Virus record (IMG/VR): IMGVR_UViG_3300025276_000024
Span: 50,830-114,829 of that record
DNA length: 64,000 nucleotides
Origin: a virus
Reading direction: 5' to 3' (one strand)
Of the stretch, positions 7,958 to 27,738 are shown piece after piece. The notes beneath the pieces are model-generated. The model did not search any database. It was not told where the DNA came from and worked only from the letters and a program-made list of their open reading frames with translations. The translations under genes and the position numbers were made by a program. How positions within the stretch are numbered: position 1 is the first letter of the stretch; each line of letters begins with the position of its first letter.

Positions 7958-10900
7958 ATGGAAAACGAATCTAAAGGCCCTTTATCAGAGGAAATAGTAT
8001 CACAACAAAGACCTGCCCCAAGTATTATACCTGAAGGGCAGTTCCGCTTTGAACCAATTGCTGATTTGTTTGAAACTCCTGAAACTAACTTTAATGATCT
8101 ATTAATGAGTGGACCATTAGCTGCTGATGAAATATCAGGTGTTAATGAATATAAAGCTGATATAGATAAGTATGGTATAAGTGCTATGGCTTCTTTAGGT
8201 GTAGGTGTTCCAAGTTTTGCAACTGATACATATAATCCAATTGCTCAGGATCAACCTGATAAGAGTACATTTTCTAAAATGCAAGAGCTTTCTACTCTGC
8301 CAAATGCACCCGTGTCTACTAATAGATTAGCTCCTGTGTTTTCAGGAATGAGACAAACTCAATTTTTGAGATATTATAATCATCCTGAATTTGATAAGTT
8401 AGGTTTTTCACCATATGCAAATATGGAGAACTTTTATAATGAGAATTCTACTATATGGGATGATATGGAAAGAATGAGAGGACAATGGTTTTCTCTAGCC
8501 GGTACTGGATTAAATTCTGTATATGGATCACTTACAAGTGGTACTGATTACCTAGAACCAGACTTAGCTTCTGCTTCAGAATTTGAAGATATAATGGCAA
8601 TCTCTTCTTCTACTAGAGGTGGAGTAGGTGGTTTCATTAATAACTTAGCTGCTAACTCTGCATACACAGGGGGTATACTTGCATCAATAGCAATTGAAGA
8701 AGTAATACTTGCAGGAGCAGCAGCATTACAAGGTGGTATGAATCCTGTTTCTGATGCAGCTCTTATAGCAAGAACCGCTAAGAATACAGTAACAGGTACA
8801 AAAGCTCTTTATAGTTTTACAAAATTATTTGAGAGAACAAGAAAGATATTACAAAAAGCTAAAGAATTAGAAACAGCAAGAGATTTTTTTACTGCTGTAA
8901 AATCAGGAGGTAAAATGTCACTTAATCTATTAGGTAAAGGATTTACACCTAATACAGTAAAGGCATTTAGAAATATTAAGACTGCTGAAAATGCTGGTCA
9001 GAATATGTCTAATCTAGCTAAGATGTCTACTAAGTTTGGTGGATTTTATAGAGACCTTAGAGCAGTTAATTTAGCAATGGCTGAATCTAAACTTGAAGCA
9101 GGAATGGTTTACAACCAGGTAATGAGACAAGGTTTAACAGAGGCATCTAATAAAAATATGGGTAAAGGACCCGGAGAAGATTTTGAAGGAGATATAGCCA
9201 ATGCAGCAAACAATGCATCATTCAAAGCTATGTTAGCTAATGCACCTTTAATTTATGCAAGTAACTGGTTTGTTATTGGTAATGCATTAGGTGGTTTTCA
9301 AAGAGGAATACAAAGAACATTAGGTAATACATTTCAAAAAGGTTTTGCTAAAAATATAGTTAATACTGCAGGTAAGAAAGTAGTAAACTCTGCTGGTGAA
9401 TTAATTAAAAGCCCATTTAAATATGTAGGCAATAGCTTTTCAAACATGTGGGGTAAGGTTAAAGCTGGTGGCTTTAAAGGTCTTACCGGTGCAGGTAGTA
9501 TAGCAATGCTTGATTATTTTGCTGCTAACGTTGCAGAAGGTATACAAGAGATTGGACAGGAAGCTATCTCAGCAGCAACTGTAGGTTACTATACTGAAAT
9601 ACTAGATAATCCTGCACAAGGAGGTATTGATTTAAGAAATCAAATGATAATGTCTGCAATGGGTGATCAGTTTTCTGCTGAAGGAGCCAATGTATTTTTA
9701 TCTGGTTTTCTTATGGGTGGATTAGTATCTGGTCCACAAAAATTATTCTTTCAAGGTGTACCTTCTATATATAATTATGGGCTTCAGCAAGCTGGTATTG
9801 GTTTAGCATCTAAGTCTCAAAAAGAAGCATACGCAGAATACAAGAAGAACAGAGAGGAAATGATTGATGAGGTTGTGAAATCTTATAATAAATCATGGGA
9901 TACTCAAGCATATGACCCTTCAGACTTATTTGATCTTACAAGAATGAACTTTATGGTTCAAAAGGAAGCAGCAGAAAGTATCAGAAAGAATGTATTTAGC
10001 CAAGACAGGTTCGGTGTTATAGATGCAAAAGATGCATCTAAATTTTCACAGTATAATTATATGTTTGCTACAGGAGGATCAGCTAATTTTAAAAATCAAT
10101 TACAAGGATTTCTAGAATTATCAGATGAAGAACTCATACAAGCATTTCCTAATGTATCTAAACAAGATAAACAATCTGGAAAGTTAAGAGAACGTATTAC
10201 TAGTATGATGACTAGTATGGATAAAATTGAAGATTCCTATAATAGGAATAAAGATAAAAATGTAAACCCATTTAATAAAAATAAGTACAATAGAAAGACT
10301 CAAGAAACAGAATATATTGCTGAAGCATTAAATCAATATGCATATGATCATGTGCGTTATTTACAAATGTTTACTGAGAACGGTTTTAACAGAGCGTTAG
10401 AAAGAGCAGATGGTATTTATTCTATATTAGAATCTGAACCATTATTTAAAGGCATGTCTGCTAATGATATAACAGTTTTACTAGACTCAGATTCAATAGA
10501 GAAAGAAATATCAATGCTTCAACAACAAATTGCAGCTACTGAAGGTGCTGACAAAGGTCTTGGAGAAAGCAATAAAACCAAAAGACAAAAAATTAAAAGG
10601 TTGACAGCAATGTATAAGATTGTTACTGACCCACAAAATAGATTTAAGAATGGAACCTTTAAAAGAAATAAACTTTTAAAAGGAAAACTAAGAAGTGAAT
10701 TTAAAAATTATGTAAGATTCATGGCATCTAGTAAAGGTGAATTTGTATCTGAAGATAAAATAGATACAGCACTTGAACAGATAGTTGATTATGGTGCTCT
10801 TAAAGGTAGAGCAAGGGTATATGATAAAGCCATTCAGTATTTACAGAATCCTGAAAAGTTTGCTGAGATACAACAAAGACAGTATGAAGTAAATAAAGTT

Positions 10901-13900: not shown

Positions 13901-16900
13901 AAGATTTTAAGGAATGAGGGAGAACTGAATGAGCGTGAATTGGAATTAATGAAAGAACCATTTATATCTCAATCAGTTAATCTTGGTGTTGCTACTATGG
14001 GAGGACCAGGTGCATTAGCATCTGCAGATAGTGTTGAAGCAGGAATTGAGACTAGATTAGATAAAGTAAATGCAGAGTTGAATTCTTTAAGAGCTGAACT
14101 TGAGAAAGGTTTATCTAAAAAAGAAAAAATAAAAGCTGTTAGATCAAGTGAAAAATATAAAAAATTATTAGCAGAGAAAAAGAAACTTGAAAAAGGAGCT
14201 AATAAACTTATAGAAGTAACAACAAATAGAGGCCGTATTGAAGACTATAATAAGTTTTTAGATTGGGCTGCTGATAATTTACCAGAAGTAATAGGTATAG
14301 CTAACCTAACAACCCTTGCTAATAATGGAATCTCTGAAGGATATCAAAGAGTAGGTGCTTTTGTAATGAACCTTGATAGAATTGCAAATGGTATAAATAT
14401 AAACGGTACTTTATATACAAGTGAAAATAGTCCATACAAATATCATGAAGCCTTTCATGGTGTATTTAGAATGGTGCTTAGTCAAGAAGAAATAAATAAG
14501 TATAGAAAAATAGCTAAGTCAGAGTTAAAAGCCAAATACGGAAGTACATATAAAACACAATTAGAAAGGTTTAGAAATTCAGCTGAAGCATATCAAGAAA
14601 TGACTGCTCTTGAATTAGAAAATGAATTTGCTGAAGAATATTTGGCAGATGAGTTTGATAACTTTAAAATGAAACCAAGCAGTAGTAAAACAAATGCAGA
14701 TGTTAAGAATTTATTTACTAGAATTATAGAGTGGATTAAATCTGTATTTGGAAAATATTCTGCTAATGAGTTGAATACTTTATTTGAAAACATTGATGCT
14801 GGTAAATATAAAAATGCTGTTATACAAGCAAATGAGTTTACTCAATTAGATACAAGCTTAAGCGGATCTATTAGTGTAGCAAATGCAACAGTAAGATATG
14901 GTTCTGCATCTAAAGTTGTAGCTGAAGGTGAGCCAGCTGGTCAGCTATATGTTGACACAGATGTAATAGATCCTTTAATTAGATCTATGGCTGGTATGTT
15001 TGTTAATAGAGTAAATAAACTTTCTTTAAAAGAACAATCATATAACCCAACTGAAATATATAATGATCTAGAAATTGACTTTATGCTTATGCTTGATCCA
15101 GCAGCAGCAATTAATTCTAGCTTCACTGGAGCTAAAAGAAAATATCTTGAACAATTAGATCAAGCATTTATTAACTATCCAGAAGATATCAAAAAAGAAG
15201 TATTTAATTTAATTAATATTATATCTGATATGGATCAGTCTAATGCTCTTATAGTTGAGAACATTGAAGATGCTACCGGATTAAGATCTACAAGTGAATT
15301 TAATAAAGATGCGGCAGAGATAGGGGGATATAATTCATTATCATTTAAGGTAAGATCATATATTGCTACTACTACGTTGGTTGGAACAGACTTTTTTGGT
15401 AAGACAGAATTAACAGAAGGAGAACCATTAATTGTACCAGTTAAGTTTAATGAAGCATATAATAGTATATTAAAATCTGTGTCAAATGAAAGTGACCCAG
15501 TTACTATGCTAAAAAGAATGTTTTCATATTCAAGATTAAACCCACAAGGAAAAGCAGTAGTAGATAAACTATTTAATGATACAGGATTAAGTATAGAAAA
15601 ATTAATGACTGAAGATCCATTTAAAGATTTAAAAGATGGATCATTATTAATTTCTATGCTAAAAGGATTTGAAAATTACAAAGTAGATTATATATTTAAT
15701 GAAAGGGATTCAAATGGTAACCTATTAATATATACTGCTTCAGAACGTGATGACATTAATTCACAATTAGATGAGTGGGCTCAGGCATTTATAACTAAAC
15801 AAAAGCTTGCGCTATCAGATCCTAAGAGGGTAAAAGACTTCTTAAGATTAACAAAGAATATGAAAGAAGTAATGACTTCATATCCAGAAGATACATCAAC
15901 AATAATTGGAGTGTCAAGAGAGTTTTCTCAAAAGATGTTTGATCTAATAGGTATTAGATTAAGTCCAAATTATATTGCGTTTAGTATTGCTTCTGCTAAA
16001 ACAGAATCTGACCTAGAAAACAGTCCAGAACTAGGTGCATTAAAGCAAGGGTATTCAGACTCTACTCCACTTTCAAATGAGCTTCTAGATCAATTATATA
16101 CTGGTTTTAAAAACAATGTAAACATATTCTCTAAGAAAGAAGATGGTATGGCATCTAGGTTAACTACATTAAGTATTAACAACGCTACATTTGATGAAAC
16201 TATTGGTGCATCAACATTTGTTAATCCTAATGGTGATGTAGTATATGCACATCAATTACCAACATATCATTTAAAAGCAATACAAGCATTAAACACATCA
16301 GTTAAAAGAGATCAATTAATGCAAGATGAGTATTTAAAAAACAATTACTTACTTAATAATGAAGCCTTTAATGAATTGGCAAATCAAAATAGAATAAAGG
16401 TTATTAGAATTGCTGGTAGTAAGCTTAAAAATCAAATTGAAACTAATGATGATAGTCAAACTACAGAAGATATACTAAATGAATCTATATCTAAAAATAA
16501 ATCAACACAAAGTTTTGGTGAGTTTACCCCTCAAGAGTTTGCTATATCTTTAATAAACAACTACACTGCTAACTTTAATAGAAGAAGTGGTAAAGTAGAA
16601 ACTGTAGTGGGCTTAGGTAAACAAGACATTGCACTAGCACCTGTGTTTCTTAGAGTAATGGAAGCAGCAAATACAGGAGATTTAACATCATTGCCTATTA
16701 TTAAAGCTGTGTCAATTAAAGCTGATGGTAGTATTAATTTAACTCCTCAAGCTATAAATGTTTTTATGGATTCTATCTCAGCTGAGTTTGAAAGAATAAA
16801 CAGAGAAACAATTGAATATCAAAAATCTACTGGTGAAATAGAAGGGTTTAATGACTCATTAGAAGGTAGAGCATTTTCATTTACTAATAACGAAATGCTT

Positions 16901-19900
16901 ATTTCTGGATCATTGCAAGAATCATTAATAAACATTGCAATGCAGTCTGGTGCAAAGGAAGAAGTTATTAGTTTTGAAAAAGCTGTTTCTTTAGCACAGG
17001 GTGTTTCAATGGCGGGTATAAGAAGTGAGGTAACTAAATCATTAAATGAAAGCTTTAAAGAATTTGATACACTACTACAAGATTTAAAAGTAAAAGATAA
17101 TTTATCTAAACAAGTACTACAAGGTTTAACAATTGGAGAAGGAGTTGCAAGAACTTCTATTGAATTATCTGGATTAAAATTAAATTTAAATACCAACACA
17201 TCTCATAACCTACAACAAATATTTTTTAACAATTGGATAATTTCTAAGTCCATAAATGATTTACTATTGGGAGACCAAGCCGTATCATTAAAAGATATGG
17301 TTGATAGAGTTAAGAGAGCTAAGCTTCAGAATGCTGCATATTACAGTGCTTCTAGTAAAGTTGTAGATCCGTCTAAGGGTATATTTCATGAAAGTACTAA
17401 TTTTGATATGTTTAGTTTTCAAGAACCAAAGGCTAAATCTTCATTAACAAATAATAATATAGATCTAGCTGATGCTCAAGCATACATAACTACTAAAGGA
17501 GTACGTTATGCTACGTTTGCATTTGGAAGATTGAGTCCTGCAATGTCAAACATGTTAGATGATATTGATGTTGGTAATCCTATTGATGCTGATAGAGCAT
17601 ATGGGACAGAAGAAAATACAATTAATTTATCTGAACAACAAGACTTTATAAATTCTAAGAAGTATGTATATATGGATGGTAAGACAGCTATTAAAATGTC
17701 TGTTACTGTCTTAACTAAAGAGTATACATCAAATTATAATGACAATCTTGGTAAGTGGGAAGCAAAACCTAACATGGTTGAGCTACATTATTTACGTGAG
17801 CAAATGGAAGCCAATGAGGAAAAGAATCAAAACTTTGCTATGGCCGCTCCATTATCTGCAATAAAGATGATGAAGCAATCAGTTAATAGACTTAATCCAG
17901 AGTCTGGTAAATTTGATAAGACAAGAGATTTAACATCTATTAATCTAGATACATCTTACCTAGGGCTACAAGTTATTAATCCATCTAACAAGAAGATTGT
18001 AACTGATATGTCACAAATAAAAGAGCTTATTACAAGTGAACAAGATGATAATGTAGAGGTTGAAGGCATGGTAGATGAAAATGGTGAAACAATGAATGTA
18101 GGTGCTCTTAAAGTTGCCTATAACAAAGCAGTATCTGAAAGAGTTACATTAAAATATAAGAACAAAAGAAATTTAATATTCTCATTTGATACAGCACTGG
18201 ATGAATTTGAATTATCTAAAGAAGCTGGAGCTATTACACCAAATCTAGCTGCCTTTTTACTTGAAGCACAAACATCATTACAGGCATCAGGAGTAAGTTC
18301 AAATTTATTAGAGTTCTTTTCTTTAGAAGACGGAGCACAAAAATATAATTTAAATAGTCCGGTGACTGCTAAGAGGTTTGAGTCATTATTTTTAACATAC
18401 TTTAGTAAAGGCACCTTAAGAGAAAAAGTACCTGGAGATGCGTTTGCACTTGTATCATCATTTGGTCACAAAGTTTACAGACGTGTATTTGAAATTAAAG
18501 ATGGTGTACCAATTAGATCTGAAATAGTAAGAGAGAGCTCAATGAAAGGTGTAACACCTGAAGTAAGCATAGATGATTTACTACAAAGTGCTATACCTGC
18601 AGAAGGAGTAATTGTTCTTGATGATCTGCGTACTGGAGTTATGGAATATAAAAATGGTAAACCAACTGGCTTAAGATATAGTGAGGTTATTATGCCTCCT
18701 ATGGACAAAAACATAATGAGCCTTATATATAATAGTGAAAATGCATCTATCCCAGATGCAATATCTAAAATGTTTGGTGTGCGTATTCCAACTCAAGATA
18801 AACATTCAGCTGTAAATATGAAAGTGGTAGACTTTATGCCTGTGTATTATGGTTCTTCAGCTATATTTCCTAAAGAGTTAGTAGAAATATCTGGAGCAGA
18901 TTTTGATATTGATAAAGTGTATGCTCTTATGAAGGAGTATTACTTAGATAGTAATAAAAACTTTGTAGAGTATGGTGCTGGTAATTCATATTTTGAATAT
19001 GTAAAATATATGAATAGGCAAGTTAAGCAAGCTGGTAACCCAATTAGAACTGCCTCTGACTTATATAAAGATGAAGTTCTTTCTATCAGAATAGATAATG
19101 CTTTAACTGATTCTGAAAAAAATAGACTTACTGATGCCAATGGTATAAATAAAATAAGTGAGGAAGCTCTAAGAGCTATGTTAGTATTAGGTCTCCCTGC
19201 TACACAAGCACAGTTTAAAAGCTATGTTGAAAAAAACGGAACACCTAATGAGGCTGTATTAAACAACAGAATTGTAGATCTGAGATATGCATTAGCTGGG
19301 AATAGAGGTATGACTGGTTCTGAATTATCTGTTTTAAATGATGGTCAATTAAAATATGATTTACCTATTGCATATCAATCTGCTGATTTAGCTGTACTAG
19401 AAGATTTATTTAAAAGATTTTCAAGTACTGATTCTGGTATGGAACTATTTCAAAATAGAGTTGACTCATCAGTTGATGTAGATAATCTTACTGGTATGAT
19501 CAAAGCTTTTGAAGCTAATAAAGGTGCAGCAATTGGTGCTATTGTAAAACCAAATTTATATTTAAGTTTGCTTAGAGAGTATAAAATAAAATTAAAATCT
19601 CCTATAAAATTTAATAATAACACCTATGATGGCTTTACTCAAAATGAAATAGATGGGGTTAGAATTCAGGATATTGTTTCTTCTCTAATTACAATGGAAA
19701 CAGATAATGCTAAAGAACGTTTAATATCTAAGTTAGGTTTAAATATACAAGCTGTAGGTATAGCAGGTAATATGTTATCACTTGGAGTTAGTCTAGACAC
19801 AACAATTCTTTTATTGAATTCAGCTGAGGTACGTGATTTATTTGCTCTTGCATTAAATAAAGATGATCAATTTGATCCAAGCTTAAATACATTATTAAAA

Positions 19901-21877
19901 CAAAGAATTGCACAATTAAGTAAAAACATTACAGATCAAAAAACCAAAGGTAATAAACCTACTTTTGTTAGACTAACAGATGAGTTTTTAAAGACTGCTG
20001 TAGATAGTACTGAAGACCTTACTGATAATGAAAGAATACAAATTTTATATCTATTTAAGAAGTTCAATGATCTTAAAACTTATACATCAAAAATGGGATC
20101 TGTTACTGCTCTTACAAAAGGCCTGCCTCAAAATATTCCTGCTGTAAAGAAAACTATACAAGATCTACAAGAATTGTTTGATAAGAAAACAGCCTTGATG
20201 AACTTATCTCCATTGTATAAAAGTAAAACATGGCAAAGCACATACTTAAAAATATTTAGTCAAATTTATTCTGACTTATTGCCAAACACTCTTTTAACAA
20301 TGAGCTCAGAGTTTGCTAGTGTTTTAGATCCAGTATATAGCGGTATGAATACTGATGACAGAGGTTTTGATAATGAAACAAGAAATGTTATTGAACAAGA
20401 TCTACTATCATATCTAACTATTAAGTCTTATCAAAAATTACTTAATAACAGTTCTGGTAATTCATCTGTAGAGAATACATTAATTTATCCAGGCCCTGTT
20501 GGAGCAACTGACTTGTCATTGATTAAAAAAATAAATGATTATCAGTTAGTAAGGGAAGAACAAGATTTAGAGTCTAATTACTTTTTAGATTCTTTTATAG
20601 GTACTAACTATGCCGGTACAGCAAGTAATAAAACAGGTCTAAACTTAGTAGTAGCAGATACATGGAGAAGACTCAACTCTGCTAATAAAATTGATTTACA
20701 AACTTCCTTTGCAAGGTTGTATGGTTCAATTGAAACAAGGGAATTAGCTGAGGATGTACTACATTACATGATGGTTAAAGATGGTCTACAACTTAAGTAT
20801 GGTACTTTAATGTCAGCAATGAGTCCATTTGTAATGAATAAGTATTTGACTAATGTTGCATCTGTAGAAAAAGCATTAAAAGGACAACTTGATTTTGAAA
20901 AAGTATTTGGTCTATCTAAACAAGAAGTAATGTCTGAGTTTAAGTATGGGTATCTACAATCTAATGTAGTAGGTCCATTATTACATACATATGATGCATC
21001 AGCTTTACAAGATGGCTTTGTTTGGGATCCAACAACTATACCTAATAAATTTACAGTTACTTCAGATGACTATCATGGAAAAGAGTTTATTAGAATTAAG
21101 AGTGAAAGAAATGGATTTTCAGGAATTGCTTATTACACTACATTCAGACTTCTAGAACAGGAACAAGAGAATGTATATGAATATGTAGAGATTTCATCTA
21201 TGGGATCTAATCAACAATTTGGAGGTGGCTTTGTAGGAGGTCCTAGATTAACATATCAACAAACCAGAAACCTAGGTAGAGGCACTCAACAAAATGACTA
21301 CCCGGCTAATGCATATGAATTGTCTAAGGATGAACTTCTAGAAGACTATTCACAAGTTGATGGTAAACCTGTAGGTACAGGTGTTGGTATTGTAGATACA
21401 AATCTTGAGAAAAAGCAGGAGATTACTGAAGCATTAAATTCTGAATCAGCAATTATAAATCAAACAAATGATAGCGTAAGTGTTAAGGTTGACGAAGATG
21501 CCAAAGAAGTAAATATTAGTAAGGAGCAGTTAATGCTGCAGGAGCTCTCTAAGAATCAAAAAAGTTTTATCTTTGATGAGAATGGTAATTCAATTATAGA
21601 GGATACTGATCAGTCTCTTCCTGAACAGACAGAAGAAGAACAACAGGAAACAGAAGAACTAAATGAAGGATTAAAAGATTCTGTAGAAGATGCTGAGGCA
21701 AGTATATTAGAAGAATGGTGGAGTAAGAATATAGTAGGTAATCCTGCAGCAATAGAAGCTTTAAGGGTTGATGGTATACAGAGTATAGATGATGCAAAAC
21801 TTTTATATGGGGATATGTTTTCTCAATCAGAAGATGGACAACAACAATTGATAGATAGACTTAAATGTCTTATATAA
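7958..21877 (+). CDS. Giant virion RNA polymerase protein (4639 aa): hydrophobic N-terminal region, zincin domain, crAss-type double-psi-barrel RNAP
   Basis: Catalytic GADFDIDK (D3648 at 18899) preceded by RIPTQDKHS; HEAFH zincin motif at 14444-14458 followed by EEYLADEF; Gly/Ala-rich hydrophobic segments in the first ~600 aa. Confidence 0.88.
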   Translation: MENESKGPLSEEIVSQQRPAPSIIPEGQFRFEPIADLFETPETNFNDLLMSGPLAADEISGVNEYKADIDKYGISAMASLGVGVPSFATDTYNPIAQDQPDKSTFSKMQELSTLPNAPVSTNRLAPVFSGMRQTQFLRYYNHPEFDKLGFSPYANMENFYNENSTIWDDMERMRGQWFSLAGTGLNSVYGSLTSGTDYLEPDLASASEFEDIMAISSSTRGGVGGFINNLAANSAYTGGILASIAIEEVILAGAAALQGGMNPVSDAALIARTAKNTVTGTKALYSFTKLFERTRKILQKAKELETARDFFTAVKSGGKMSLNLLGKGFTPNTVKAFRNIKTAENAGQNMSNLAKMSTKFGGFYRDLRAVNLAMAESKLEAGMVYNQVMRQGLTEASNKNMGKGPGEDFEGDIANAANNASFKAMLANAPLIYASNWFVIGNALGGFQRGIQRTLGNTFQKGFAKNIVNTAGKKVVNSAGELIKSPFKYVGNSFSNMWGKVKAGGFKGLTGAGSIAMLDYFAANVAEGIQEIGQEAISAATVGYYTEILDNPAQGGIDLRNQMIMSAMGDQFSAEGANVFLSGFLMGGLVSGPQKLFFQGVPSIYNYGLQQAGIGLASKSQKEAYAEYKKNREEMIDEVVKSYNKSWDTQAYDPSDLFDLTRMNFMVQKEAAESIRKNVFSQDRFGVIDAKDASKFSQYNYMFATGGSANFKNQLQGFLELSDEELIQAFPNVSKQDKQSGKLRERITSMMTSMDKIEDSYNRNKDKNVNPFNKNKYNRKTQETEYIAEALNQYAYDHVRYLQMFTENGFNRALERADGIYSILESEPLFKGMSANDITVLLDSDSIEKEISMLQQQIAATEGADKGLGESNKTKRQKIKRLTAMYKIVTDPQNRFKNGTFKRNKLLKGKLRSEFKNYVRFMASSKGEFVSEDKIDTALEQIVDYGALKGRARVYDKAIQYLQNPEKFAEIQQRQYEVNKVIYGKRAEITRRSVEKYTEVVEANEFVNQLAKEGIFADIGEMEMFLKTGNINFLQTFYDDNGLINPAVHEIKHGMIQRLIGDWKSTRKDVKPEEEKSEEEAAVEQTEDSRNKLDTLLDKAGITIDIDTTTNSPLVVKALKKNYALYRARQTRLGLPILDSVEWANSAEALDVRNTVNALKRIWASGEASVNSADGTLIFNNPKESDIINGDIGFEEFLQDSEVLINNPLVQSVLNQSTLDLSNIVSMAETELEEGESLPDTPQRQFYKGGLAGDIYKITTFDKTNNTTDVSYQILDKSGNPLSKEYLDFLDDNFASVQGTFLEKEAQIAKDALDALDETMPDTTEFSFDGVGGLTYGQPVYKGSVKYIVVQKPQYSNRFGDNQKLKVIKESENVGPISERKFEFIEQGDFANNFTVEETTFNLLPDSVTKIQIKDLTTLYPHTNYTELGAGENSIARESAIRSDNLKAKDRFNMILSELSPSEIEGLEFVVSLDPNGGNVRGAYTAKNRDGKIYKEANPLIDARTSKYIIGVRIANPKLRADINNKLIDSGMEISNSPEEVFAYLNNEAFIIRDQRTGKEIDPRSMNNEQASNVILQPNKNLTLEEKQAALSKVQNDFALNALIVQSFDKLDIGSTPQYFVAGSKELPFTIDLTAGGGKVAYAKSRERVYPIPMDALQYDTADSEGNLFVFNLKYNKETGQRDYDFTTNLKGAERDALEDAVELQLKKQNQWDNLLRAGKGTDRYLAMVRLPNGTFAKVNLKPTVYTTEELDAKQVEVVEAAKRIGAIKSMEKSIEEAVKYNAELQDSLFLSSKPGNLIELNVGPDGSIFLSLDNTNTKTSFNIGLTPEEVNATDRSAKDVINDLVEKFNLDTDGGGRVEKLSAELKSGNFRRSFPTDTDPQTIYDNAVTEVLPEVVEAQTVEVSASSDAIQLSRDIAFIPSNDKSKKVEEEGELGRERPTAEEDVDSVAYMEDAEFEEKLANVSQAGIGDMQKHIDHITNKILRNEGELNERELELMKEPFISQSVNLGVATMGGPGALASADSVEAGIETRLDKVNAELNSLRAELEKGLSKKEKIKAVRSSEKYKKLLAEKKKLEKGANKLIEVTTNRGRIEDYNKFLDWAADNLPEVIGIANLTTLANNGISEGYQRVGAFVMNLDRIANGININGTLYTSENSPYKYHEAFHGVFRMVLSQEEINKYRKIAKSELKAKYGSTYKTQLERFRNSAEAYQEMTALELENEFAEEYLADEFDNFKMKPSSSKTNADVKNLFTRIIEWIKSVFGKYSANELNTLFENIDAGKYKNAVIQANEFTQLDTSLSGSISVANATVRYGSASKVVAEGEPAGQLYVDTDVIDPLIRSMAGMFVNRVNKLSLKEQSYNPTEIYNDLEIDFMLMLDPAAAINSSFTGAKRKYLEQLDQAFINYPEDIKKEVFNLINIISDMDQSNALIVENIEDATGLRSTSEFNKDAAEIGGYNSLSFKVRSYIATTTLVGTDFFGKTELTEGEPLIVPVKFNEAYNSILKSVSNESDPVTMLKRMFSYSRLNPQGKAVVDKLFNDTGLSIEKLMTEDPFKDLKDGSLLISMLKGFENYKVDYIFNERDSNGNLLIYTASERDDINSQLDEWAQAFITKQKLALSDPKRVKDFLRLTKNMKEVMTSYPEDTSTIIGVSREFSQKMFDLIGIRLSPNYIAFSIASAKTESDLENSPELGALKQGYSDSTPLSNELLDQLYTGFKNNVNIFSKKEDGMASRLTTLSINNATFDETIGASTFVNPNGDVVYAHQLPTYHLKAIQALNTSVKRDQLMQDEYLKNNYLLNNEAFNELANQNRIKVIRIAGSKLKNQIETNDDSQTTEDILNESISKNKSTQSFGEFTPQEFAISLINNYTANFNRRSGKVETVVGLGKQDIALAPVFLRVMEAANTGDLTSLPIIKAVSIKADGSINLTPQAINVFMDSISAEFERINRETIEYQKSTGEIEGFNDSLEGRAFSFTNNEMLISGSLQESLINIAMQSGAKEEVISFEKAVSLAQGVSMAGIRSEVTKSLNESFKEFDTLLQDLKVKDNLSKQVLQGLTIGEGVARTSIELSGLKLNLNTNTSHNLQQIFFNNWIISKSINDLLLGDQAVSLKDMVDRVKRAKLQNAAYYSASSKVVDPSKGIFHESTNFDMFSFQEPKAKSSLTNNNIDLADAQAYITTKGVRYATFAFGRLSPAMSNMLDDIDVGNPIDADRAYGTEENTINLSEQQDFINSKKYVYMDGKTAIKMSVTVLTKEYTSNYNDNLGKWEAKPNMVELHYLREQMEANEEKNQNFAMAAPLSAIKMMKQSVNRLNPESGKFDKTRDLTSINLDTSYLGLQVINPSNKKIVTDMSQIKELITSEQDDNVEVEGMVDENGETMNVGALKVAYNKAVSERVTLKYKNKRNLIFSFDTALDEFELSKEAGAITPNLAAFLLEAQTSLQASGVSSNLLEFFSLEDGAQKYNLNSPVTAKRFESLFLTYFSKGTLREKVPGDAFALVSSFGHKVYRRVFEIKDGVPIRSEIVRESSMKGVTPEVSIDDLLQSAIPAEGVIVLDDLRTGVMEYKNGKPTGLRYSEVIMPPMDKNIMSLIYNSENASIPDAISKMFGVRIPTQDKHSAVNMKVVDFMPVYYGSSAIFPKELVEISGADFDIDKVYALMKEYYLDSNKNFVEYGAGNSYFEYVKYMNRQVKQAGNPIRTASDLYKDEVLSIRIDNALTDSEKNRLTDANGINKISEEALRAMLVLGLPATQAQFKSYVEKNGTPNEAVLNNRIVDLRYALAGNRGMTGSELSVLNDGQLKYDLPIAYQSADLAVLEDLFKRFSSTDSGMELFQNRVDSSVDVDNLTGMIKAFEANKGAAIGAIVKPNLYLSLLREYKIKLKSPIKFNNNTYDGFTQNEIDGVRIQDIVSSLITMETDNAKERLISKLGLNIQAVGIAGNMLSLGVSLDTTILLLNSAEVRDLFALALNKDDQFDPSLNTLLKQRIAQLSKNITDQKTKGNKPTFVRLTDEFLKTAVDSTEDLTDNERIQILYLFKKFNDLKTYTSKMGSVTALTKGLPQNIPAVKKTIQDLQELFDKKTALMNLSPLYKSKTWQSTYLKIFSQIYSDLLPNTLLTMSSEFASVLDPVYSGMNTDDRGFDNETRNVIEQDLLSYLTIKSYQKLLNNSSGNSSVENTLIYPGPVGATDLSLIKKINDYQLVREEQDLESNYFLDSFIGTNYAGTASNKTGLNLVVADTWRRLNSANKIDLQTSFARLYGSIETRELAEDVLHYMMVKDGLQLKYGTLMSAMSPFVMNKYLTNVASVEKALKGQLDFEKVFGLSKQEVMSEFKYGYLQSNVVGPLLHTYDASALQDGFVWDPTTIPNKFTVTSDDYHGKEFIRIKSERNGFSGIAYYTTFRLLEQEQENVYEYVEISSMGSNQQFGGGFVGGPRLTYQQTRNLGRGTQQNDYPANAYELSKDELLEDYSQVDGKPVGTGVGIVDTNLEKKQEITEALNSESAIINQTNDSVSVKVDEDAKEVNISKEQLMLQELSKNQKSFIFDENGNSIIEDTDQSLPEQTEEEQQETEELNEGLKDSVEDAEASILEEWWSKNIVGNPAAIEALRVDGIQSIDDAKLLYGDMFSQSEDGQQQLIDRLKCLI

Positions 21878-21891
21878 TTAAAAAATAGAAA

Positions 21892-24800
21892 ATGGCTACA
21901 TGTTATAATAAAAATGATGCAGGGTATAAAGCATTAAGGACACAATATAATTCAGATGTTGAAACATCTCAGGTCATTAATAACTGGCAGCTTCTTAATG
22001 ACTCTAAAGTTTTTCCTAGTGTTGTTCAAGCACAGACTATGGTTAAGGATCAAAATATTGTTTTTTCTCTGAAACAGAAAAGATTTGGAGAAAGTGTAAT
22101 TGATAACCTGAGAAGAGAGAGAATAGGTAGTAATCTTAACGGGCAATTTTTAATTAATAATTCTAATCCTGCCACACAATCTTATGATGAAGCATTTTTA
22201 CAAAGCAATCTAAAAAGATTTAATAGATATTTAGAAATTAATAATATCCCTGCTGAGTCATTTTCTGTTACAAGAACTCCAAAGAGTTATAAGATAGAAG
22301 CAGTTAATGATCTATTTAGTTCAAGAGATATATTAGAAAAATCTAGATCATGGGATACTAACAGATCTAGAGCAGTTGTAATGCATCTTAAAAGAATGTT
22401 CCCACAAGTAAAGGTAAAGATGTTATCTGTAGGTCAAGCTAAAATAATGTTTGAGTCATTACCAAAGTGGAGAAAAAATAATGTAGGGTTTGATCAAGTG
22501 AATTCTTTTTATATGGATGGCACAGCATATCTAATAAAAGGAAGAGTCACTGATGAAATAGCAATTGAAGAAATACTGCATCCATTTACTGATGCAATAA
22601 AAATGGAAAATGAAGAACTATTTAATAACTTATTAGATGAAGCAGTTAATAATTTTCCAGAGTTAACTCAGCAAATTGAAGCAGCATATAATAATAAAAA
22701 ATTCAGTGATACTGAAAGAGATCTTGAGATTGTAACACAAGCACTAGCAAGACACTTCAAAAAAGAATATGAAACAACACCTACTACAAACTTTTTAGCA
22801 AAAGTTAAAGAGGTTCTAGAGTGGTTTAAAACTGTTATAGAAAATTTAAACAAGTATTTAACTGGTAGACCTCTTCCTGTTTCAGCAATTAAAGCAGGAA
22901 CAAATCTAAGTGATATTGCAAAATTACTTAATACAGAAGGCATACAGTTTAAATTAGAAAAAAGAGTAGATGGTAAAGTTAGATATAGTTTAACTCCAGC
23001 AAAGGAAGCACAAGTAAGACAAGCATTAGCTGTAGCTAATGATGTTCAAAGACCTCTTATACTACAACTATTTAATGTAGCTCAACTAGAGGATGGTACT
23101 TTAGTTGACTCTCTCTCAGTATCAGTAAAGAATGCTGCAGCAGGTGATTCAATAGTTACACTTAATAAAGAAAATCATACATACATAAATTCAAAGGATA
23201 AAAATAAAGTATATACATCTGTAACTACTGCTATTAAAGGAAAGTTATCTCCTGAAAAGCAAGTTGAGCATCAGATCAATCTAGATATTGGTAATGAGGT
23301 AGATACTTTATTAGATGGTGTTATTGCAAATTTATCTTTTGAGGATTCATTAGCAGCTGTTGAAACCAATAATCTATCAAGAGAAGATATGCAGAAGACC
23401 TTTAATACTTTGGGAAGTATTATGGATAGTATAAGAATGAAAGGTGCTATTGTGTTATCTCAAGTTGTTTTATTTGATGAAGCATCTAAAATGGCAGGTA
23501 CTGCTGATATTTTTATCATTGACCAAAATGGTAAGGTAAATATCATGGACCTTAAAACAACTAAGAATGAACTTAGTAAAGAAGTAGCTCTTAATGATGC
23601 TAAAGGAAAACGTACAGTAAATCAATATAAAGGAAGAGAATATAAATTAGATAAAGACAGTAAGTTGTTAGCTCAATACGATAAGGCAGGTAAGTTGATA
23701 AGTGAAGGTGTTAATAAGCCAGGTACTTTAGAAGAACTTAAAGCACTTACAACAGAAACTCAACATAACTTACAGGTAAATCTATACAGAAGAATGGCAG
23801 AAAACATGGGGTATGAAGTATCCTATGATGAGTGGTCTACATCTACTATACATTTTAAAGTTAATATATCAGGTAAAGGTATTGATCAGGTATATGAGGG
23901 AGGTATAGATTTTGATAGATGGGTGCCTCACCCGGTAAGTCAGAACCTACCTTTAGTAGATAAAATAGTACCAGAAGCATTAAACTCATATCAAAAAAGT
24001 AAATTAGACCAACAACAAGAGGGTGCTTATAATAAATTCTGGAATGGTAAAGATCAAACAGAGACTACTAATGATGATGACAGAAGTAAAGCAGAAAATT
24101 ATGATGAGTATAATGCAGCTGCAGGATTACTAAACACTTATCAAAAAGCATTAATTGCTAAGAGAGATATGATTCCTTTACTGAAATCTAATATCTACAT
24201 GCAATCTACTAAAGATAAAGAAATTGATCAGATATCAAAAACTATTGCATATATAAACATTGCAATGGGAGATGGTGTTAAACAACAATCCACTGCATTG
24301 TCAGAGGTATTGCAAGATGCGCTTGAACAGATTAAAGACTTTCAAAATTTTATACAGGATCCTAAAAATATTAACTCACCAGAGTATGTATCATATGTAT
24401 TAAACTTTGATAAGTACATGAAGACTTTTGATGGGTTATATATAGTAAAAAATACTAAAGGATTAAATGCAACCCAACAAAGACTAATTTTATCTCTGCA
24501 AACACAACTAAATAATTTAAGTGGAGCAGGAACAGACACCGGTGGTATAGTTGGAATTGCACTTAAAGATTATGTTAAAGAACAAGTAAGACTTAAATCT
24601 AATAATGATTATGGTGGAGAAGGAAGCTACTTTACTGAAGCTGATTTAAACCTTCTACTGGAGAAAGCACAGGACATTAGTGATACGGAATATCAAACTA
24701 AAGATATGGCCACTTCTCCTGATGTACTTTTAGCAACAATGGATAAAATTAGAAAAGCACAAAATCAAAAGTTGCTTGATAGAATAGCTCAAAGAGAATC

Positions 24801-27738
24801 ATTAATTAGAGCAGCTGGTCAAAAGCTTCTAAAGTTATCTCCAGAAAGCAAACTAGAAGACTTGTATGATTTTATGTTAGAGTTTGATGCTGATGGTGTT
24901 TTCAATGGACAGTATGTAACTAAAATTGGTCAAAGATACTGGGATGAATATAATAAAGTTAGAGATCCTTTATATGACAATGAGGGAACACCTTATCAAT
25001 ATAGACCTATTTATGATACAGAACAAGCACAAAAGACTGAGCAAGGTAGGAAAGATTTAGAATACAATATAGATTTGGCAGGTAAGAAAAGAGCCTTTGG
25101 TGATTTCTTTATGGCAGAAACAAAGAGAGAGGATGGATCATTAGGCAAAGGAGATAAACATGAATACACTCAGGAGTTTAAAGATGCAAGAGATAAGTTT
25201 GAAGTATGGAAGCCAGGATCAGAAAGTAGTTATAGAGGATTTTGGGAAAAGAAAGCAGGTATAAAAGCAGGAGAGTATGCTGCATATCAAGCTAGATATT
25301 ACGAAGGGATACAATATACTAAAGCAGTTAGAGTTGATGGTGTAGCTACTGGAGCAATAATACAAGAACGACAGGGTTTTATGGTTCCTAAAGTTGAATA
25401 CAGAACAGTAAGAGAAATTTCTGGGTCAGGTATAAACTTCCGTAGTGATAAATATGATGCTATATTGTCAGGTAACGATGCTAAATCAGTAGCAGAAAGA
25501 GAGTTCTATAATCTGTATATTGATATGTTTGAGAATGACCTACTGAAAAAGATTCCAATTGGTCAAGCTGCAAATATGTTAGGCAGAGTACCTTTAGTAC
25601 AGAATAAATTATTAGATGAGGTAACTGAAAGGGGGTCCTTCTTTACTAAGGTCTGGGCTAAAACAGTGAGTAGTAAAGCATTTAATATGTTTAAGCAAAC
25701 GTCTACTCAAAAGAATGTTATACTAGATAACAATGGTTATATTATAGACCAGATGCCAGTATATTATACCGGGAGAGCTAAGATAGATAGTGACATGGCT
25801 GACTTAGAAAAAGAGATCAGTGCATTAAATGCTTCTTATAAAATAAACAAAATCACTGCTGATGAATATAAAACTAAAATTGCTGCTTTAAATGGTAAAA
25901 TGACTAGGCTACGAGCTACACCAAGTAGAGGTCAAATAAGTAAGGATATGGCATCAAGTCTTTTGAAGTTTAGTGCAATGGCAGAAAACTATGAGACTAT
26001 GGGTGCAATTGATGATACATTAAAAGCCTTTGTTAAAGTAATAGAAAAAAGAACTTATACTCCGGCTAAAGGAATGAAGCTAAAGTTATCATCTACATCC
26101 AAAGGTGAAACACAAGAAGACATTGGAACTAAAGCAAATACATCTACACAGGAAAAAAATACTGTCAGGAGAGCTAAGAAGTTTATGTCAATGATACACT
26201 ATGATAATGAAATGATAACCAAAGGTGCAGTAGATAAAATTGCAGATGGTCTAATTCAATTGTCTTCTTTATCTTATGTAGCATTTAACCCTTTTGGTAA
26301 CTTTAATAACTACTTGATTGGTAGATTAAACAATAATATTGAAGCAATTGGTGGTAGATTTTATTCTCAAAAAGCATTTAAAAGAGCAACTTGGGAGTTT
26401 AACAAAAGAGCTCTTCCAGGTTTAGTACAAAGAACTGCCCACGGTGGTGCAGAAAGTCTTTTAGATGTAGTTACATTAGGTATTATACCTGGCTTAGATA
26501 AAGCTGATTATAATAAAAAATTACCTAATAGTAAATATGAAGCTTTTGTTGATATGTTTAGAATGATGGACAACATGTCTGATTTACGTGAGCAAAGTAT
26601 TGTAACAGAGGATGGTAAGAGTTGGTTTGATAAAGCTACAGAGTGGGGTTACATCATGCAAGATGCTGCTGAGTACAATTCACAAACTAAGGTAGGTATG
26701 GCTATTCTAATGGATACGTTTGTAAAAAACACAAAGACAGGGGATAAGCTATCAATGTTTGATGCATTTGAATATGATACTGTAACTCATACAAATAAAT
26801 TAAAAGAGGGATATGACGTTGTTATAAAAAGAAATGGACAAGAAGTGCCATATAGTGATGAGTTTAGATATGAAATTAGAAATGAAATTAGAGAAGTAAA
26901 TAAACAAATTCATGGTAACTATGCTAAGGAAGACAGGATGGTATTACAATCTCATACTCTTGGTAATCTAGCTGTTCAGTTTAAGAAATGGTTGGCCCCT
27001 GCTATTAGAGCAAGATATCAAAGAGAATATTTTGATCAGAATCTTGGTTGGATGGAAGGTAGATATAGATCTGCTTTATCATTTATAAACTATGCTAGAA
27101 AGGAAGTTGTACAAGGTAATCTAGACTTTAAAAATATGGGTAAAAAATACTTAGATGCCCAGGTTAATTTTTATAGCAATGATAAATTTGGTGTAGATAG
27201 AGAATATGGTAAGGGAGGAAACATGGATCAAAGAGCAAAAAATAAATTGTTTGGTTTTTATAGATCTATGGGTGACTTAGGTATTATGTTTAGTACATTA
27301 TTTATATCTATGTTATTTGATGATATACTTTCTGGAGATGATGATGATAGTGATACTACTAAACGATTTAAAAACTTAACTAGATATCAAGCAGACAGAG
27401 TTTATAAAGAGCTTGTATTATTTATGCCATCATTTGCAGGGTTTAAACAAGTAGAGCAAATGTTTAACTCTCCAGTTGCTGCTTCACGTTCAGTAAGTGA
27501 ACTGTCTGAGCTTATGGAAATGTTCTTTATAGGAGGGTTTAAATATTCTATGGCAAGAGTAACAGGAAATCTAGAAGGACCTGATGGTTTTTATGGGAAT
27601 TCAAATTATGTATATCAAAGAGGTAATAGAAAGGGAGAGTTAAAGTTATATAAAAACTTTAAAGATGTATTTCCTATTGTTTATTCAATACAGAAGTGGG
27701 ACTCTTATCTTAAGAATAGTGATTTCTATATTAAATAG
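21892..27738 (+). CDS. Giant cargo protein (1948 aa) with degenerate zincin-like and PD-(D/E)xK nuclease domains
   Basis: IEEILHPF (HExxH-like, first His lost) at 22567-22581; GTADIFII...MDLKT...QVNLY nuclease motifs at about 23497-23790; hydrophobic segment near the C-terminus. Confidence 0.7.
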   Translation: MATCYNKNDAGYKALRTQYNSDVETSQVINNWQLLNDSKVFPSVVQAQTMVKDQNIVFSLKQKRFGESVIDNLRRERIGSNLNGQFLINNSNPATQSYDEAFLQSNLKRFNRYLEINNIPAESFSVTRTPKSYKIEAVNDLFSSRDILEKSRSWDTNRSRAVVMHLKRMFPQVKVKMLSVGQAKIMFESLPKWRKNNVGFDQVNSFYMDGTAYLIKGRVTDEIAIEEILHPFTDAIKMENEELFNNLLDEAVNNFPELTQQIEAAYNNKKFSDTERDLEIVTQALARHFKKEYETTPTTNFLAKVKEVLEWFKTVIENLNKYLTGRPLPVSAIKAGTNLSDIAKLLNTEGIQFKLEKRVDGKVRYSLTPAKEAQVRQALAVANDVQRPLILQLFNVAQLEDGTLVDSLSVSVKNAAAGDSIVTLNKENHTYINSKDKNKVYTSVTTAIKGKLSPEKQVEHQINLDIGNEVDTLLDGVIANLSFEDSLAAVETNNLSREDMQKTFNTLGSIMDSIRMKGAIVLSQVVLFDEASKMAGTADIFIIDQNGKVNIMDLKTTKNELSKEVALNDAKGKRTVNQYKGREYKLDKDSKLLAQYDKAGKLISEGVNKPGTLEELKALTTETQHNLQVNLYRRMAENMGYEVSYDEWSTSTIHFKVNISGKGIDQVYEGGIDFDRWVPHPVSQNLPLVDKIVPEALNSYQKSKLDQQQEGAYNKFWNGKDQTETTNDDDRSKAENYDEYNAAAGLLNTYQKALIAKRDMIPLLKSNIYMQSTKDKEIDQISKTIAYINIAMGDGVKQQSTALSEVLQDALEQIKDFQNFIQDPKNINSPEYVSYVLNFDKYMKTFDGLYIVKNTKGLNATQQRLILSLQTQLNNLSGAGTDTGGIVGIALKDYVKEQVRLKSNNDYGGEGSYFTEADLNLLLEKAQDISDTEYQTKDMATSPDVLLATMDKIRKAQNQKLLDRIAQRESLIRAAGQKLLKLSPESKLEDLYDFMLEFDADGVFNGQYVTKIGQRYWDEYNKVRDPLYDNEGTPYQYRPIYDTEQAQKTEQGRKDLEYNIDLAGKKRAFGDFFMAETKREDGSLGKGDKHEYTQEFKDARDKFEVWKPGSESSYRGFWEKKAGIKAGEYAAYQARYYEGIQYTKAVRVDGVATGAIIQERQGFMVPKVEYRTVREISGSGINFRSDKYDAILSGNDAKSVAEREFYNLYIDMFENDLLKKIPIGQAANMLGRVPLVQNKLLDEVTERGSFFTKVWAKTVSSKAFNMFKQTSTQKNVILDNNGYIIDQMPVYYTGRAKIDSDMADLEKEISALNASYKINKITADEYKTKIAALNGKMTRLRATPSRGQISKDMASSLLKFSAMAENYETMGAIDDTLKAFVKVIEKRTYTPAKGMKLKLSSTSKGETQEDIGTKANTSTQEKNTVRRAKKFMSMIHYDNEMITKGAVDKIADGLIQLSSLSYVAFNPFGNFNNYLIGRLNNNIEAIGGRFYSQKAFKRATWEFNKRALPGLVQRTAHGGAESLLDVVTLGIIPGLDKADYNKKLPNSKYEAFVDMFRMMDNMSDLREQSIVTEDGKSWFDKATEWGYIMQDAAEYNSQTKVGMAILMDTFVKNTKTGDKLSMFDAFEYDTVTHTNKLKEGYDVVIKRNGQEVPYSDEFRYEIRNEIREVNKQIHGNYAKEDRMVLQSHTLGNLAVQFKKWLAPAIRARYQREYFDQNLGWMEGRYRSALSFINYARKEVVQGNLDFKNMGKKYLDAQVNFYSNDKFGVDREYGKGGNMDQRAKNKLFGFYRSMGDLGIMFSTLFISMLFDDILSGDDDDSDTTKRFKNLTRYQADRVYKELVLFMPSFAGFKQVEQMFNSPVAASRSVSELSELMEMFFIGGFKYSMARVTGNLEGPDGFYGNSNYVYQRGNRKGELKLYKNFKDVFPIVYSIQKWDSYLKNSDFYIK

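What the first reader, a model, noticed from the sequence alone, without database searches (positions are those of the whole stretch)
21866..21903. Only two cysteines in about 9,200 aa of cargo proteins, at the abutting C- and N-termini of the two giant proteins
Seen (by eye): the five ORFs from 2 to 27738 contain no Cys except C4637 of the vRNAP protein (...RLKCLI*) and C4 of the next protein (MATCYNK...), encoded 35 nt apart. Known: injected proteins such as N4 vRNAP avoid Cys. Inference: the two retained terminal Cys form an inter-chain disulfide that links the cargo proteins head-to-tail, so they are packaged or ejected as one chain and released on reduction in the host cytoplasm. This would be a redox-controlled ejection linker.
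Basis: partly seen in the sequence, partly recalled or inferred. Interest (0 to 1): 0.82.

Follow-up and report, generated by a model that had tools for sequence, protein, structure and literature searches.

The report
Terminal cysteine pair tethering phage cargo
Two giant proteins that this marine crAss-like phage packs and probably injects, one carrying its RNA polymerase, have no cysteine except one at each of the two ends that face each other. Relatives keep such a pair wherever the genes are separate and lack it where they are fused, which points to an untested disulfide bond that ties the proteins end to end.

Summary
The five ORFs (9,212 aa in the window; 9,596 aa with the full first ORF) hold two Cys: C4637 of the 4,639-aa protein A (RLKCLI*) and C4 of the next protein B (MATCYNK). 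About 94 would be expected.

It is not chance. All 116 A-like homologs have a Cys in the last 12 residues, and in 112 it is their only Cys. Of 96 B-like representatives, 93 have a Cys at position 3-5.

A is a fusion of crAss001 gp47-like and gp50-like (RNA polymerase, DFDID) modules; B is gp49-like. In phi14:2, crAss001, p-crAssphage, IAS virus, Fpv1 and others, a Cys pair sits at every gp47|gp50|gp49 junction that is a gene break. It is absent where the genes are fused.

There is a structural precedent. Cyanophage A4 has the same signature (gp27 sole Cys at -3, gp26 sole Cys at 5), and cryo-EM shows these two as a disulfide.

Best reading: a head-to-tail disulfide between A and B (confidence 0.62). 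Ejection as one chain and release by reduction remain inference. No paper in the searched library describes this for crAss-like phages. This scan has noted the same rule on at least 73 other genomes.

The parts
21866..21868 (+). TGT codon of Cys4637, third residue from the C-terminus of protein A and its only Cys
   Evidence: It is the only invariant column in the alignment of the last 140 residues of 25 relatives. A terminal Cys is present in 116/116 A-like homologs.
21901..21903 (+). TGT codon of Cys4 of protein B, its only Cys
   Evidence: It is invariant in alignment A2. A Cys at position 3-5 occurs in 93/96 full-length-like B/gp49-like representatives.
7958..21877 (+). Gene A, 4,639 aa: a collinear fusion of a gp47-like module and a gp50-like virion RNA polymerase module
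   Evidence: BLASTP: A 2162-2287 matches crAss001 gp47 2156-2293 (E 1e-9); A 3336-3661 matches gp50 1237-1496 (E 2e-16); A 3599-3961 matches phi14:2 gp66 1313-1657 (E 2e-8).
14444..14458 (+). HEAFH zincin-type motif at A residue 2163, in the gp47-like module
   Evidence: It aligns with YHEAFH of crAss001 gp47. The p-crAssphage homolog is annotated 'fused to zincin protease'.
18899..18913 (+). DFDID catalytic motif of the virion RNA polymerase, A residues 3648-3652
   Evidence: The motif is shown to be essential in phi14:2 gp66 (bioRxiv 10.1101/2020.03.07.982082).
21455..21697 (+). Acidic, poorly conserved, low-confidence linker (A about 4500-4580) before the C-terminal helical tip
   Evidence: Alignment A1. 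AlphaFold2 block pLDDT is 44-58.
21698..21874 (+). Small C-terminal helical tip of A. Its last helix (A about 4625-4638; 21830-21871) carries Cys4637
   Evidence: AlphaFold2 on alignment A1: residues 81-140 have block pLDDT 73-84, and helix 126-139 contains C138.
21892..27738 (+). Gene B, 1,948 aa, gp49-like RNA-polymerase-associated cargo protein
   Evidence: BLASTP: B 1338-1746 matches crAss001 gp49 805-1194 (E 1e-27). tblastn hits to 'putative RNA-polymerase subunit' of gut crAss phages.
21892..22311 (+). N-terminal domain of B (residues 1-140): an extended arm (residues 1-9) with Cys4, then a well-folded mostly helical domain
   Evidence: AlphaFold2 on alignment A2: mean pLDDT 88; residues 1-9 are coil with block pLDDT 75. 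Invariant residues are M1 A2 C4 N6 N8 L15 I29 Q33 P42.
2..7946 (+). Three upstream Cys-free ORFs (2-1519, part of an 889-aa ORF; 1522-4515; 4575-7946), presumed further cargo proteins
   Evidence: Zero Cys each. They lie just upstream of the RNAP-associated genes, as gp45/gp46 do in crAss001. No family hit in Pfam or PHROGs. The cargo role is inferred from position.

Best explanation
Protein A (gp47-like plus gp50-like RNA polymerase) and protein B (gp49-like) are Cys-purged virion cargo proteins. Each keeps one Cys: A on its C-terminal helix, B on its N-terminal arm. In the oxidised virion these two Cys form an inter-chain disulfide, so the C-terminus of A is joined covalently to the N-terminus of B. 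The result is an almost linear thread of about 6,600 residues. It is the same unit that other crAss-like phages encode as one, two or three polypeptides. Cys is purged everywhere else so that no wrong cross-links form in proteins that must pass the tail channel partly unfolded. The proposed consequence is that the partners stay together in fixed order inside the capsid and perhaps during ejection, and that the link is cut by reduction in the host cytoplasm. Shown here: the Cys pattern, its conservation, and its covariation with gene fusion state. Shown in another phage (A4): the same signature is a disulfide in the virion. Inferred: the bond in this phage, single-thread ejection, and reductive release.
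For: 1. The pattern in the window: 2 Cys in 9,212 aa (9,596 aa with the full first ORF), both at the A|B junction, against about 94-98 expected.
2. Junctions fetched with patterns that did not include the termini, together with those, all show one Cys at -2 to -4 of A and one at position 3-4 of B. This holds down to 28-30% identity.
3. All 116 A-like proteins have a Cys in the last 12 residues. In 112 it is the only Cys in roughly 4,600 aa (2,589-5,993). None has a Cys in the first 12 residues.
4. Of 96 B-like representatives (50% identity clusters), 93 have a Cys at position 3-5, and in 66 it is the sole Cys. None has a Cys in the last 12 residues. This asymmetry fits one link at the A|B junction with free outer ends.
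5. Fusion states covary with the pairs.
   - Three separate genes: phi14:2 has gp67 with its only Cys as the last residue, gp66 with only C3 and C2179 of 2,180, and gp65 with only C3. The same terminal cysteines occur in crAss001, cr128_1, cr85_1, IAS virus and Bajarodcaudo virus, some with a few internal Cys as well. In cr126_1 the gp50-like and gp49-like ends obey too; its gp47-like gene was not in the stretch fetched.
   - gp47+gp50 fused: the window, cr1_1 and Fpv1 have only the distal pair.
   - gp50+gp49 fused: p-crAssphage has only the proximal pair and no C-terminal Cys.
   - All three fused: P0243 has no terminal Cys.
   - Of 120 unfused gp50-like proteins, 119 have both terminal Cys.
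6. Precedent: in cyanophage A4, gp27 has a sole Cys at -3 and gp26 a sole Cys at 5. Cryo-EM shows the C-terminal helix of gp27 docked in gp26 and joined by the disulfide Cys1715-Cys5 (PMC12002296).
7. The models put A's Cys on a terminal helix behind a disordered linker and B's Cys on an exposed N-terminal arm.
8. Disulfides do exist in crassvirus virions: they are seen in the tail and portal-vertex proteins of crAss001 (PMC10172136).
Against: No direct observation of the bond exists for this phage or for any crAss-like phage. Virions assemble in a reducing cytoplasm, so the bond could form only after packaging or lysis; it therefore cannot by itself explain co-packaging. Gut crassviruses keep the terminal Cys although their habitat is anoxic, where disulfides are less secure. 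In A4 the bond sits in a folded pentameric pre-ejectosome, which argues for structural stabilisation rather than threading. Recombinant phi14:2 gp66 is active alone, so the link is not needed for catalysis. Three of the 96 B-like representatives lack the N-terminal Cys. One is explained as a triple fusion. The other two (P0149, P0234) could not be placed in genomic context.
Confidence: 0.62

Rival explanations
1. The two Cys do form the A-B disulfide, but its role is purely structural. It would lock a folded cargo or pre-ejectosome assembly inside the capsid, as in cyanophage A4. It would not be a threading linker or a redox-timed release device.
For: In A4 the bond stabilises a helix-in-cleft contact within a pentameric ring above the portal. 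Both termini here are predicted to be folded elements, a helical tip and an N-terminal domain.
Against: In crAss001 the RNAP-associated cargo gave no ordered density. The cysteines lie within a few residues of the chain ends across the group (N-terminal Cys at 3-5, C-terminal Cys at -1 to -12). That placement is what a near-linear concatenation needs, but a structural clamp does not require it. The equivalence with peptide bonds in fused lineages suggests that chain continuity matters.
Confidence: 0.2
2. Each terminal Cys binds something other than the neighbouring cargo protein. Candidates are another virion protein (portal, inner capsid), a second copy of the same protein (A-A or B-B dimers), or a shared metal ion.
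For: The sequence alone cannot name the partner. crAss001 tail and portal-vertex proteins use several disulfides. In p-crAssphage the 857-aa gp47 has a lone Cys at -2 with no obvious facing partner.
Against: The number and placement of terminal Cys always match the gene breaks: four with three genes, two with two genes, none in the triple fusion. They are never on the outer ends (0/116 A-like N-termini, 0/96 B-like C-termini). One Cys per partner and very few His make a Zn site unlikely. Tail-to-tail or head-to-head homodimers would give branched chains that suit a narrow channel poorly.
Confidence: 0.1
3. There is no covalent chemistry. The Cys would be conserved as part of a terminal recognition, processing or packaging signal, or simply tolerated at chain ends where the Cys purge is relaxed.
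For: The neighbouring residues are also conserved within the marine clade (MA-x-C-x-N-x-N; [IL]K-x-C-[ILN]-L).
Against: Across the group only the Cys is conserved (MACK, MSKRC, MAKKC, MSCG, MACT...TIC*...QECK*...LRCNS*). Mere tolerance would give sporadic Cys, not near-universal ones, and would not exclude the outer termini. The A4 signature is a real bond. A DNA-level motif is not supported: ATGTYTTATA occurs 38 times against 35.5 expected.
Confidence: 0.06

Closest known systems
Cyanopodophage A4 (Anabaena phage A-4L) pre-ejectosome, gp27-gp26 disulfide Cys1715-Cys5 (PNAS 2025, PMC12002296)
   Same: The two genes are adjacent and in the same order. The upstream ejection protein has its only Cys at -3 on a C-terminal helix, and the downstream one has its only Cys at position 5. 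The bond is seen by cryo-EM in the virion. The window shows Cys at -3 and at 4, a predicted C-terminal helix and an N-terminal arm.
   Different: BLASTP finds no sequence similarity. The A4 proteins are smaller (1,717 and 1,114 aa), carry no RNA polymerase, and form an ordered pentameric ring. The paper reports the bond in passing as a stabiliser. It does not describe a conserved rule, covariation with gene fusion, or a threading or release role.
RNA-polymerase cargo block of cultured crassviruses: phi14:2 gp67-gp66-gp65 and crAss001 gp47-gp50-gp49
   Same: The modules are homologous and have the same order. The virion location of the cultured phages' proteins is shown by mass spectrometry. 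They follow the same terminal-Cys rule.
   Different: Here the first two modules are fused into one 4,639-aa protein, so only one Cys pair remains. The preprint on phi14:2 gp66 and the crAss001 atlas do not mention these cysteines. The final Nature version of the phi14:2 paper could not be read.
Cys suppression in ejection proteins of Schitoviridae (N4 gp50, DEV gp71-73) and T7 gp15/gp16
   Same: There is a strong purge of Cys from injected proteins: 0.00075% in gp71 homologs against 0.865% genome-wide (PMC11445570). T7 gp15 and gp16 have none.
   Different: The N4-like vRNAP is a single chain and keeps no Cys at all. No conserved terminal pairs are described there. The retained pairs are what sets the crAss-like case apart.

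Membership tests
Crassvirales-type RNAP cargo block (gp47/gp50/gp49-like) | Giant protein with the DFDxD catalytic motif of the two-barrel virion RNA polymerase | tested here: met
   GADFDIDK at A 3648 aligns with gp50 SGSDFDVDK. There is also a BLASTP match to phi14:2 gp66.
Crassvirales-type RNAP cargo block (gp47/gp50/gp49-like) | gp47-like module with a zincin HExxH motif, and a gp49-like partner encoded next to the polymerase | tested here: met
   A 2162-2287 matches gp47 (E 1e-9, YHEAFH). B 1338-1746 matches gp49 (E 1e-27).
Crassvirales-type RNAP cargo block (gp47/gp50/gp49-like) | The proteins are present in the virion and delivered to the host | not testable with these tools
   Shown only for phi14:2 and crAss001 homologs.
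A4-type disulfide between consecutive ejection proteins | Sole (or nearly sole) Cys within a few residues of the C-terminus of the upstream protein and at position 3-5 of the downstream one, with adjacent genes | tested here: met
A4-type disulfide between consecutive ejection proteins | C-terminal helix of the upstream protein docks on the downstream protein | tested here: inconclusive
   A terminal helix carrying the Cys is predicted. The single complex prediction gave no verdict.
A4-type disulfide between consecutive ejection proteins | An S-S bond is present in the mature virion | not testable with these tools
   This needs non-reducing gels, cross-link mass spectrometry or cryo-EM.
Cys-suppressed phage ejection proteins | Cys frequency far below the rest of the proteome | tested here: met
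   0.02% against 1.02%.
CaaX-type C-terminal prenylation signal | Cys exactly fourth from the end, followed by two aliphatic residues, plus a prenyltransferase in the host | tested here: not met
   The Cys is at -3 here and ranges from -1 to -12 in homologs.
Split intein (protein trans-splicing) | An N-intein of about 100 aa starting with Cys at the end of the first protein, and a C-intein ending in HN followed by Cys/Ser/Thr in the second | tested here: not met
   Only 2 residues follow A's Cys and only 3 precede B's. There are no intein hits in Pfam.

The most novel reading that the evidence does not exclude
Across crAss-like phages the three RNA-polymerase cargo proteins act as one thread of about 6,000-6,600 residues. 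Its internal joints can be either peptide bonds or terminal disulfides, so gene fission and fusion are nearly neutral. The disulfide joints survive the oxidising periplasm and are cut by the host's cytoplasmic thiol systems. That would give ordered, stoichiometric delivery followed by redox-timed release of the polymerase and its partners.
Probability: 0.35. Interest if true: 0.85.

Novelty: new variant of a known kind. Interest (0 to 1): 0.72.

Why it matters
Crassviruses are the most abundant phages of the human gut. How they store and inject about 700 kDa of protein, including their polymerase, is unresolved. [quoted passage not shown]

A simple, strictly conserved sequence rule predicts which ends touch (gp47 C-terminus to gp50 N-terminus, gp50 C-terminus to gp49 N-terminus). 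That turns the question into a one-day experiment on cultured phi14:2 or crAss001: reducing against non-reducing gels, or cross-link mass spectrometry.

The rule would also explain why these genes are found fused or split in every combination, and it gives annotators a marker for cargo-gene boundaries. If redox-timed release holds, it would be a new way for a virus to time the activation of injected enzymes.

Tried and rejected
- **Complex prediction.** A residues 4574-4639 were folded with B residues 1-140, using my own alignments. The result was no verdict (score 0.17, mark 0.32). It counts neither for nor against binding.
- **Fold search.** Foldseek of the B N-terminal model against the PDB found nothing at E <= 0.001.
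- **Family searches.** Pfam and PHROGs on the five ORFs gave no significant family.
- **DNA-level explanation.** Both Cys codons sit in ATGT..TATAA-like strings, but ATGTYTTATA with one mismatch occurs 38 times against 35.5 expected. Rejected. All 24 distinct junction DNAs use TGT for both Cys, which is uninformative in AT-rich genomes.
- **Read-through or frameshift fusion of A and B.** The two frames differ, and the gap varies from 2 to 15 nt among relatives. Rejected.
- **Apparent new split of A (P0127, Cys at position 4).** The 100%-matching viral contig carries one continuous ORF with a single Cys. It is a gene-calling or assembly artefact.
- **'Shorter' homolog search.** It returned mostly contig-end fragments.
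- **Context of the exceptions P0149 and P0243.** No relative was found in viral contigs, and only a partial metagenome contig turned up.
- **Other dead ends.** Megablast against phages found no near relative. p-crAssphage is not held under NC_024711; BK010471 was used instead. The final Nature version of the phi14:2 paper is not held.
- **Other chemistries.** CaaX prenylation, a split intein, native chemical ligation and a Zn clasp were considered and rejected on the position and number of the Cys.

Full report
**What the window is.** The window is the last 64 kb of a 114,829-bp IMG/VR virus record with 32% G+C. It encodes ribonucleotide reductase, a family-A DNA polymerase, GroEL and helicases on the minus strand. 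A run of very large genes lies on the plus strand. Megablast finds no near relative among cultured phages.

**The observation.** The ORFs at 2-1519, 1522-4515, 4575-7946, 7958-21877 (A, 4,639 aa) and 21892-27738 (B, 1,948 aa) total 9,212 aa and hold two Cys. These are A C4637 (TGT 21866-21868...DRLKCLI*) and B C4 (TGT 21901-21903, MATCYNK). In the whole genome the first ORF is 889 aa and also Cys-free. The remaining ORFs of the window carry 1.02% Cys. About 94-98 would therefore be expected, and the binomial P(<=2) is 9e-40. His is also low (0.43% against 1.8%). The phage is not generally poor in Cys: large ORFs upstream of the window have 34, 24 and 13 Cys.

**What the proteins are.** Pfam and PHROGs give nothing, but pairwise BLASTP does.
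- A 2162-2287 matches crAss001 gp47 2156-2293 (E 1e-9), including YHEAFH.
- A 3336-3661 matches gp50 1237-1496 (E 2e-16), including the catalytic G-x-DFD-x-DK.
- A 3599-3961 matches the phi14:2 gp66 polymerase.
- B 1338-1746 matches gp49 805-1194 (E 1e-27).

So A is a collinear fusion of the gp47-like and gp50-like modules, and B is gp49-like. The homologs in phi14:2 and crAss001 are virion proteins by mass spectrometry. gp66 is the RNA polymerase that transcribes the early genes.

**Conservation in close and distant relatives.** Two scans of IMG/VR fetched 59 loci. The second scan used patterns that do not include the termini. Every junction shows one Cys at -2 to -4 of the A homolog and one at position 3-4 of the B homolog, down to 28-30% identity.

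A search of the large protein collection gave 116 A-like proteins of 2,589-5,993 aa. All have a Cys in the last 12 residues. In 112 it is the only Cys. None has a Cys in the first 12 residues. In total there are 124 Cys in 533,213 residues.

A full HMMER scan with the conserved part of B gave 96 full-length-like representatives at the 50% cluster level. Of these, 93 have a Cys at position 3, 4 or 5, and in 66 it is the sole Cys. None has a Cys in the last 12 residues. In the alignment of the last 140 residues of A-like proteins, the Cys is the only invariant column.

**Covariation with gene architecture.** This is the strongest argument. The table lists where terminal Cys occur in each fusion state.

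| Fusion state | Examples | Terminal Cys |
|---|---|---|
| Three separate genes | phi14:2 | gp67 only Cys is its last residue; gp66 only C3 and C2179 of 2,180; gp65 only C3 |
| Three separate genes | crAss001, cr128_1, cr85_1, IAS virus, Bajarodcaudo virus | Same four terminal Cys, sometimes with a few internal ones |
| Three separate genes (gp47-like gene not in the stretch fetched) | cr126_1 | gp50-like C5 and last residue; gp49-like C4; five and two internal Cys |
| gp47+gp50 fused | window clade, cr1_1, Flavobacterium phage Fpv1 | Only the distal pair |
| gp50+gp49 fused | p-crAssphage (4,070-aa protein) | Cys at -2 of the zincin protein and C3 of the fusion; no C-terminal Cys |
| All three fused | P0243 (4,452 aa) | None |

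Among 120 unfused gp50-like proteins of gut phages, 119 have both terminal Cys. The exception is an N-terminally truncated fragment. So a Cys pair marks each joint of the gp47|gp50|gp49 series that is not a peptide bond, and the outer ends are never tipped. This favours pairing of facing ends over independent roles for each Cys.

**Precedent.** A lead from earlier notes of this scan pointed to cyanopodophage A4, and I checked it myself. [quoted passage not shown] In the A-4L genome, gp27 (1,717 aa) has a single Cys at -3 and gp26 (1,114 aa) a single Cys at 5. Neither resembles the crAss proteins by BLASTP. The window's signature is thus the same as one that has been seen as a real bond.

**Local structure.** AlphaFold2 with my alignments gives two pictures. 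The last 140 residues of A form an acidic low-confidence linker followed by a small helical tip, and the final helix of that tip carries the Cys. The first 140 residues of B form a confident domain (pLDDT 88), preceded by an extended arm of nine residues that carries Cys4. Both Cys are therefore plausibly accessible.

**Background from the literature.**
- Cys suppression in injected proteins is documented for N4-like phages. It has been attributed to passage through the periplasm, which contains proteins that catalyse disulfide-bond formation (PMC11445570).
- T7 gp15 and gp16 have no Cys.
- crAss001 virions contain disulfides in tail and portal-vertex proteins. Its cargo proteins must partly unfold to pass constrictions under 50 Å (PMC10172136).
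- None of these papers, nor the 2026 N4 paper that discusses crassvirus cargo, mentions terminal cysteines in crassvirus cargo. Full-text searches found no such description.

**Mechanism proposed.** A and B dock through A's terminal helix and B's N-terminal domain. After lysis, in oxic water, the two thiols oxidise to a disulfide. Because both Cys lie within four residues of the chain ends, the product is nearly linear and could pass a narrow channel with only a tiny branch. The link would resist the oxidising periplasm and be cut by thioredoxin-type systems in the cytoplasm.

Only the sequence pattern and its evolution are shown here. The bond, the single-thread ejection and the reductive release are inferred. 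A purely structural clamp inside the capsid, as in A4, is the main alternative.

**Caveats.**
- Assembly takes place in a reducing cytoplasm.
- Gut phages live without oxygen yet keep the pairs.

**Standing.** The scan has recorded this same rule on at least 73 other genomes. I reached the fusion-state argument independently before that look-up. The A4 precedent came from those notes and was then verified.

The phenomenon is real, strongly conserved and readily testable. It is not categorically new, since one such bond has been seen in another phage. It is undescribed for crAss-like phages in the literature I could search.

Noticed in passing
window 2-27738: His is depleted about four-fold in the five cargo ORFs (0.43% against 1.8% in the other ORFs), alongside the Cys purge. 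No explanation was tested.
   Followed up: no
window 27834-30210: A four-gene cassette lies directly downstream of B: a beta-barrel-like protein with a signal peptide, a lipoprotein, a small protein, and a 141-aa secreted thioredoxin-fold protein (PF00085, E 5e-6) with no CxxC. The first two genes are also found downstream of B in relatives (L068, L070).
   Followed up: partly
P0032-P0035, P0044, P0051, P0059, P0063, P0082, P0083, P0089, P0113, P0114 (A-like homologs): Some A-like giant cargo proteins carry inserted PF13532 (AlkB-type dioxygenase), PF08719 and PF25176 domains. This suggests that extra enzymes ride along inside the injected protein.
   Followed up: no
L062:9455-17638 (Bajarodcaudo virus 1): The gp50-like polymerase gene is interrupted inside the catalytic DFD|VDK motif by an endonuclease gene. 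The two halves would rejoin to the canonical motif and carry no Cys at the break. This looks like an intron or homing element rather than a true protein split.
   Followed up: partly
L064, L078, L062 (gut gp50-like proteins): Several gut-phage gp50-like proteins share two internal Cys exactly 73 residues apart near the catalytic region (1366/1439, 1331/1404, 1341/1414). Gut phages in general tolerate more internal Cys than the aquatic ones, which have none.
   Followed up: no
L079:5588-8161 (p-crAssphage gp47, 857 aa): This protein has a single Cys at -2 (...GKQSCR*), with no facing N-terminal Cys on the next gene product. It is a possible further tether of unknown partner.
   Followed up: no
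window 11102-11116: A has a second HExxH string (HEIKH at residue 1049) besides the gp47-aligned HEAFH. Its significance is unknown.
   Followed up: no
G000:C1:31679-44297 (upstream of the window): Large ORFs just before the Cys-free block are Cys-rich: 738 aa with 24 Cys, 186 aa with 13 Cys, and 2,062 aa with 34 Cys. Cys content therefore differs sharply between neighbouring blocks of large ORFs.
   Followed up: no
L084 (T7 gp14): T7 gp14 has one Cys at position 2 (MCW...), while gp15 and gp16 have none. There is no facing partner.
   Followed up: no
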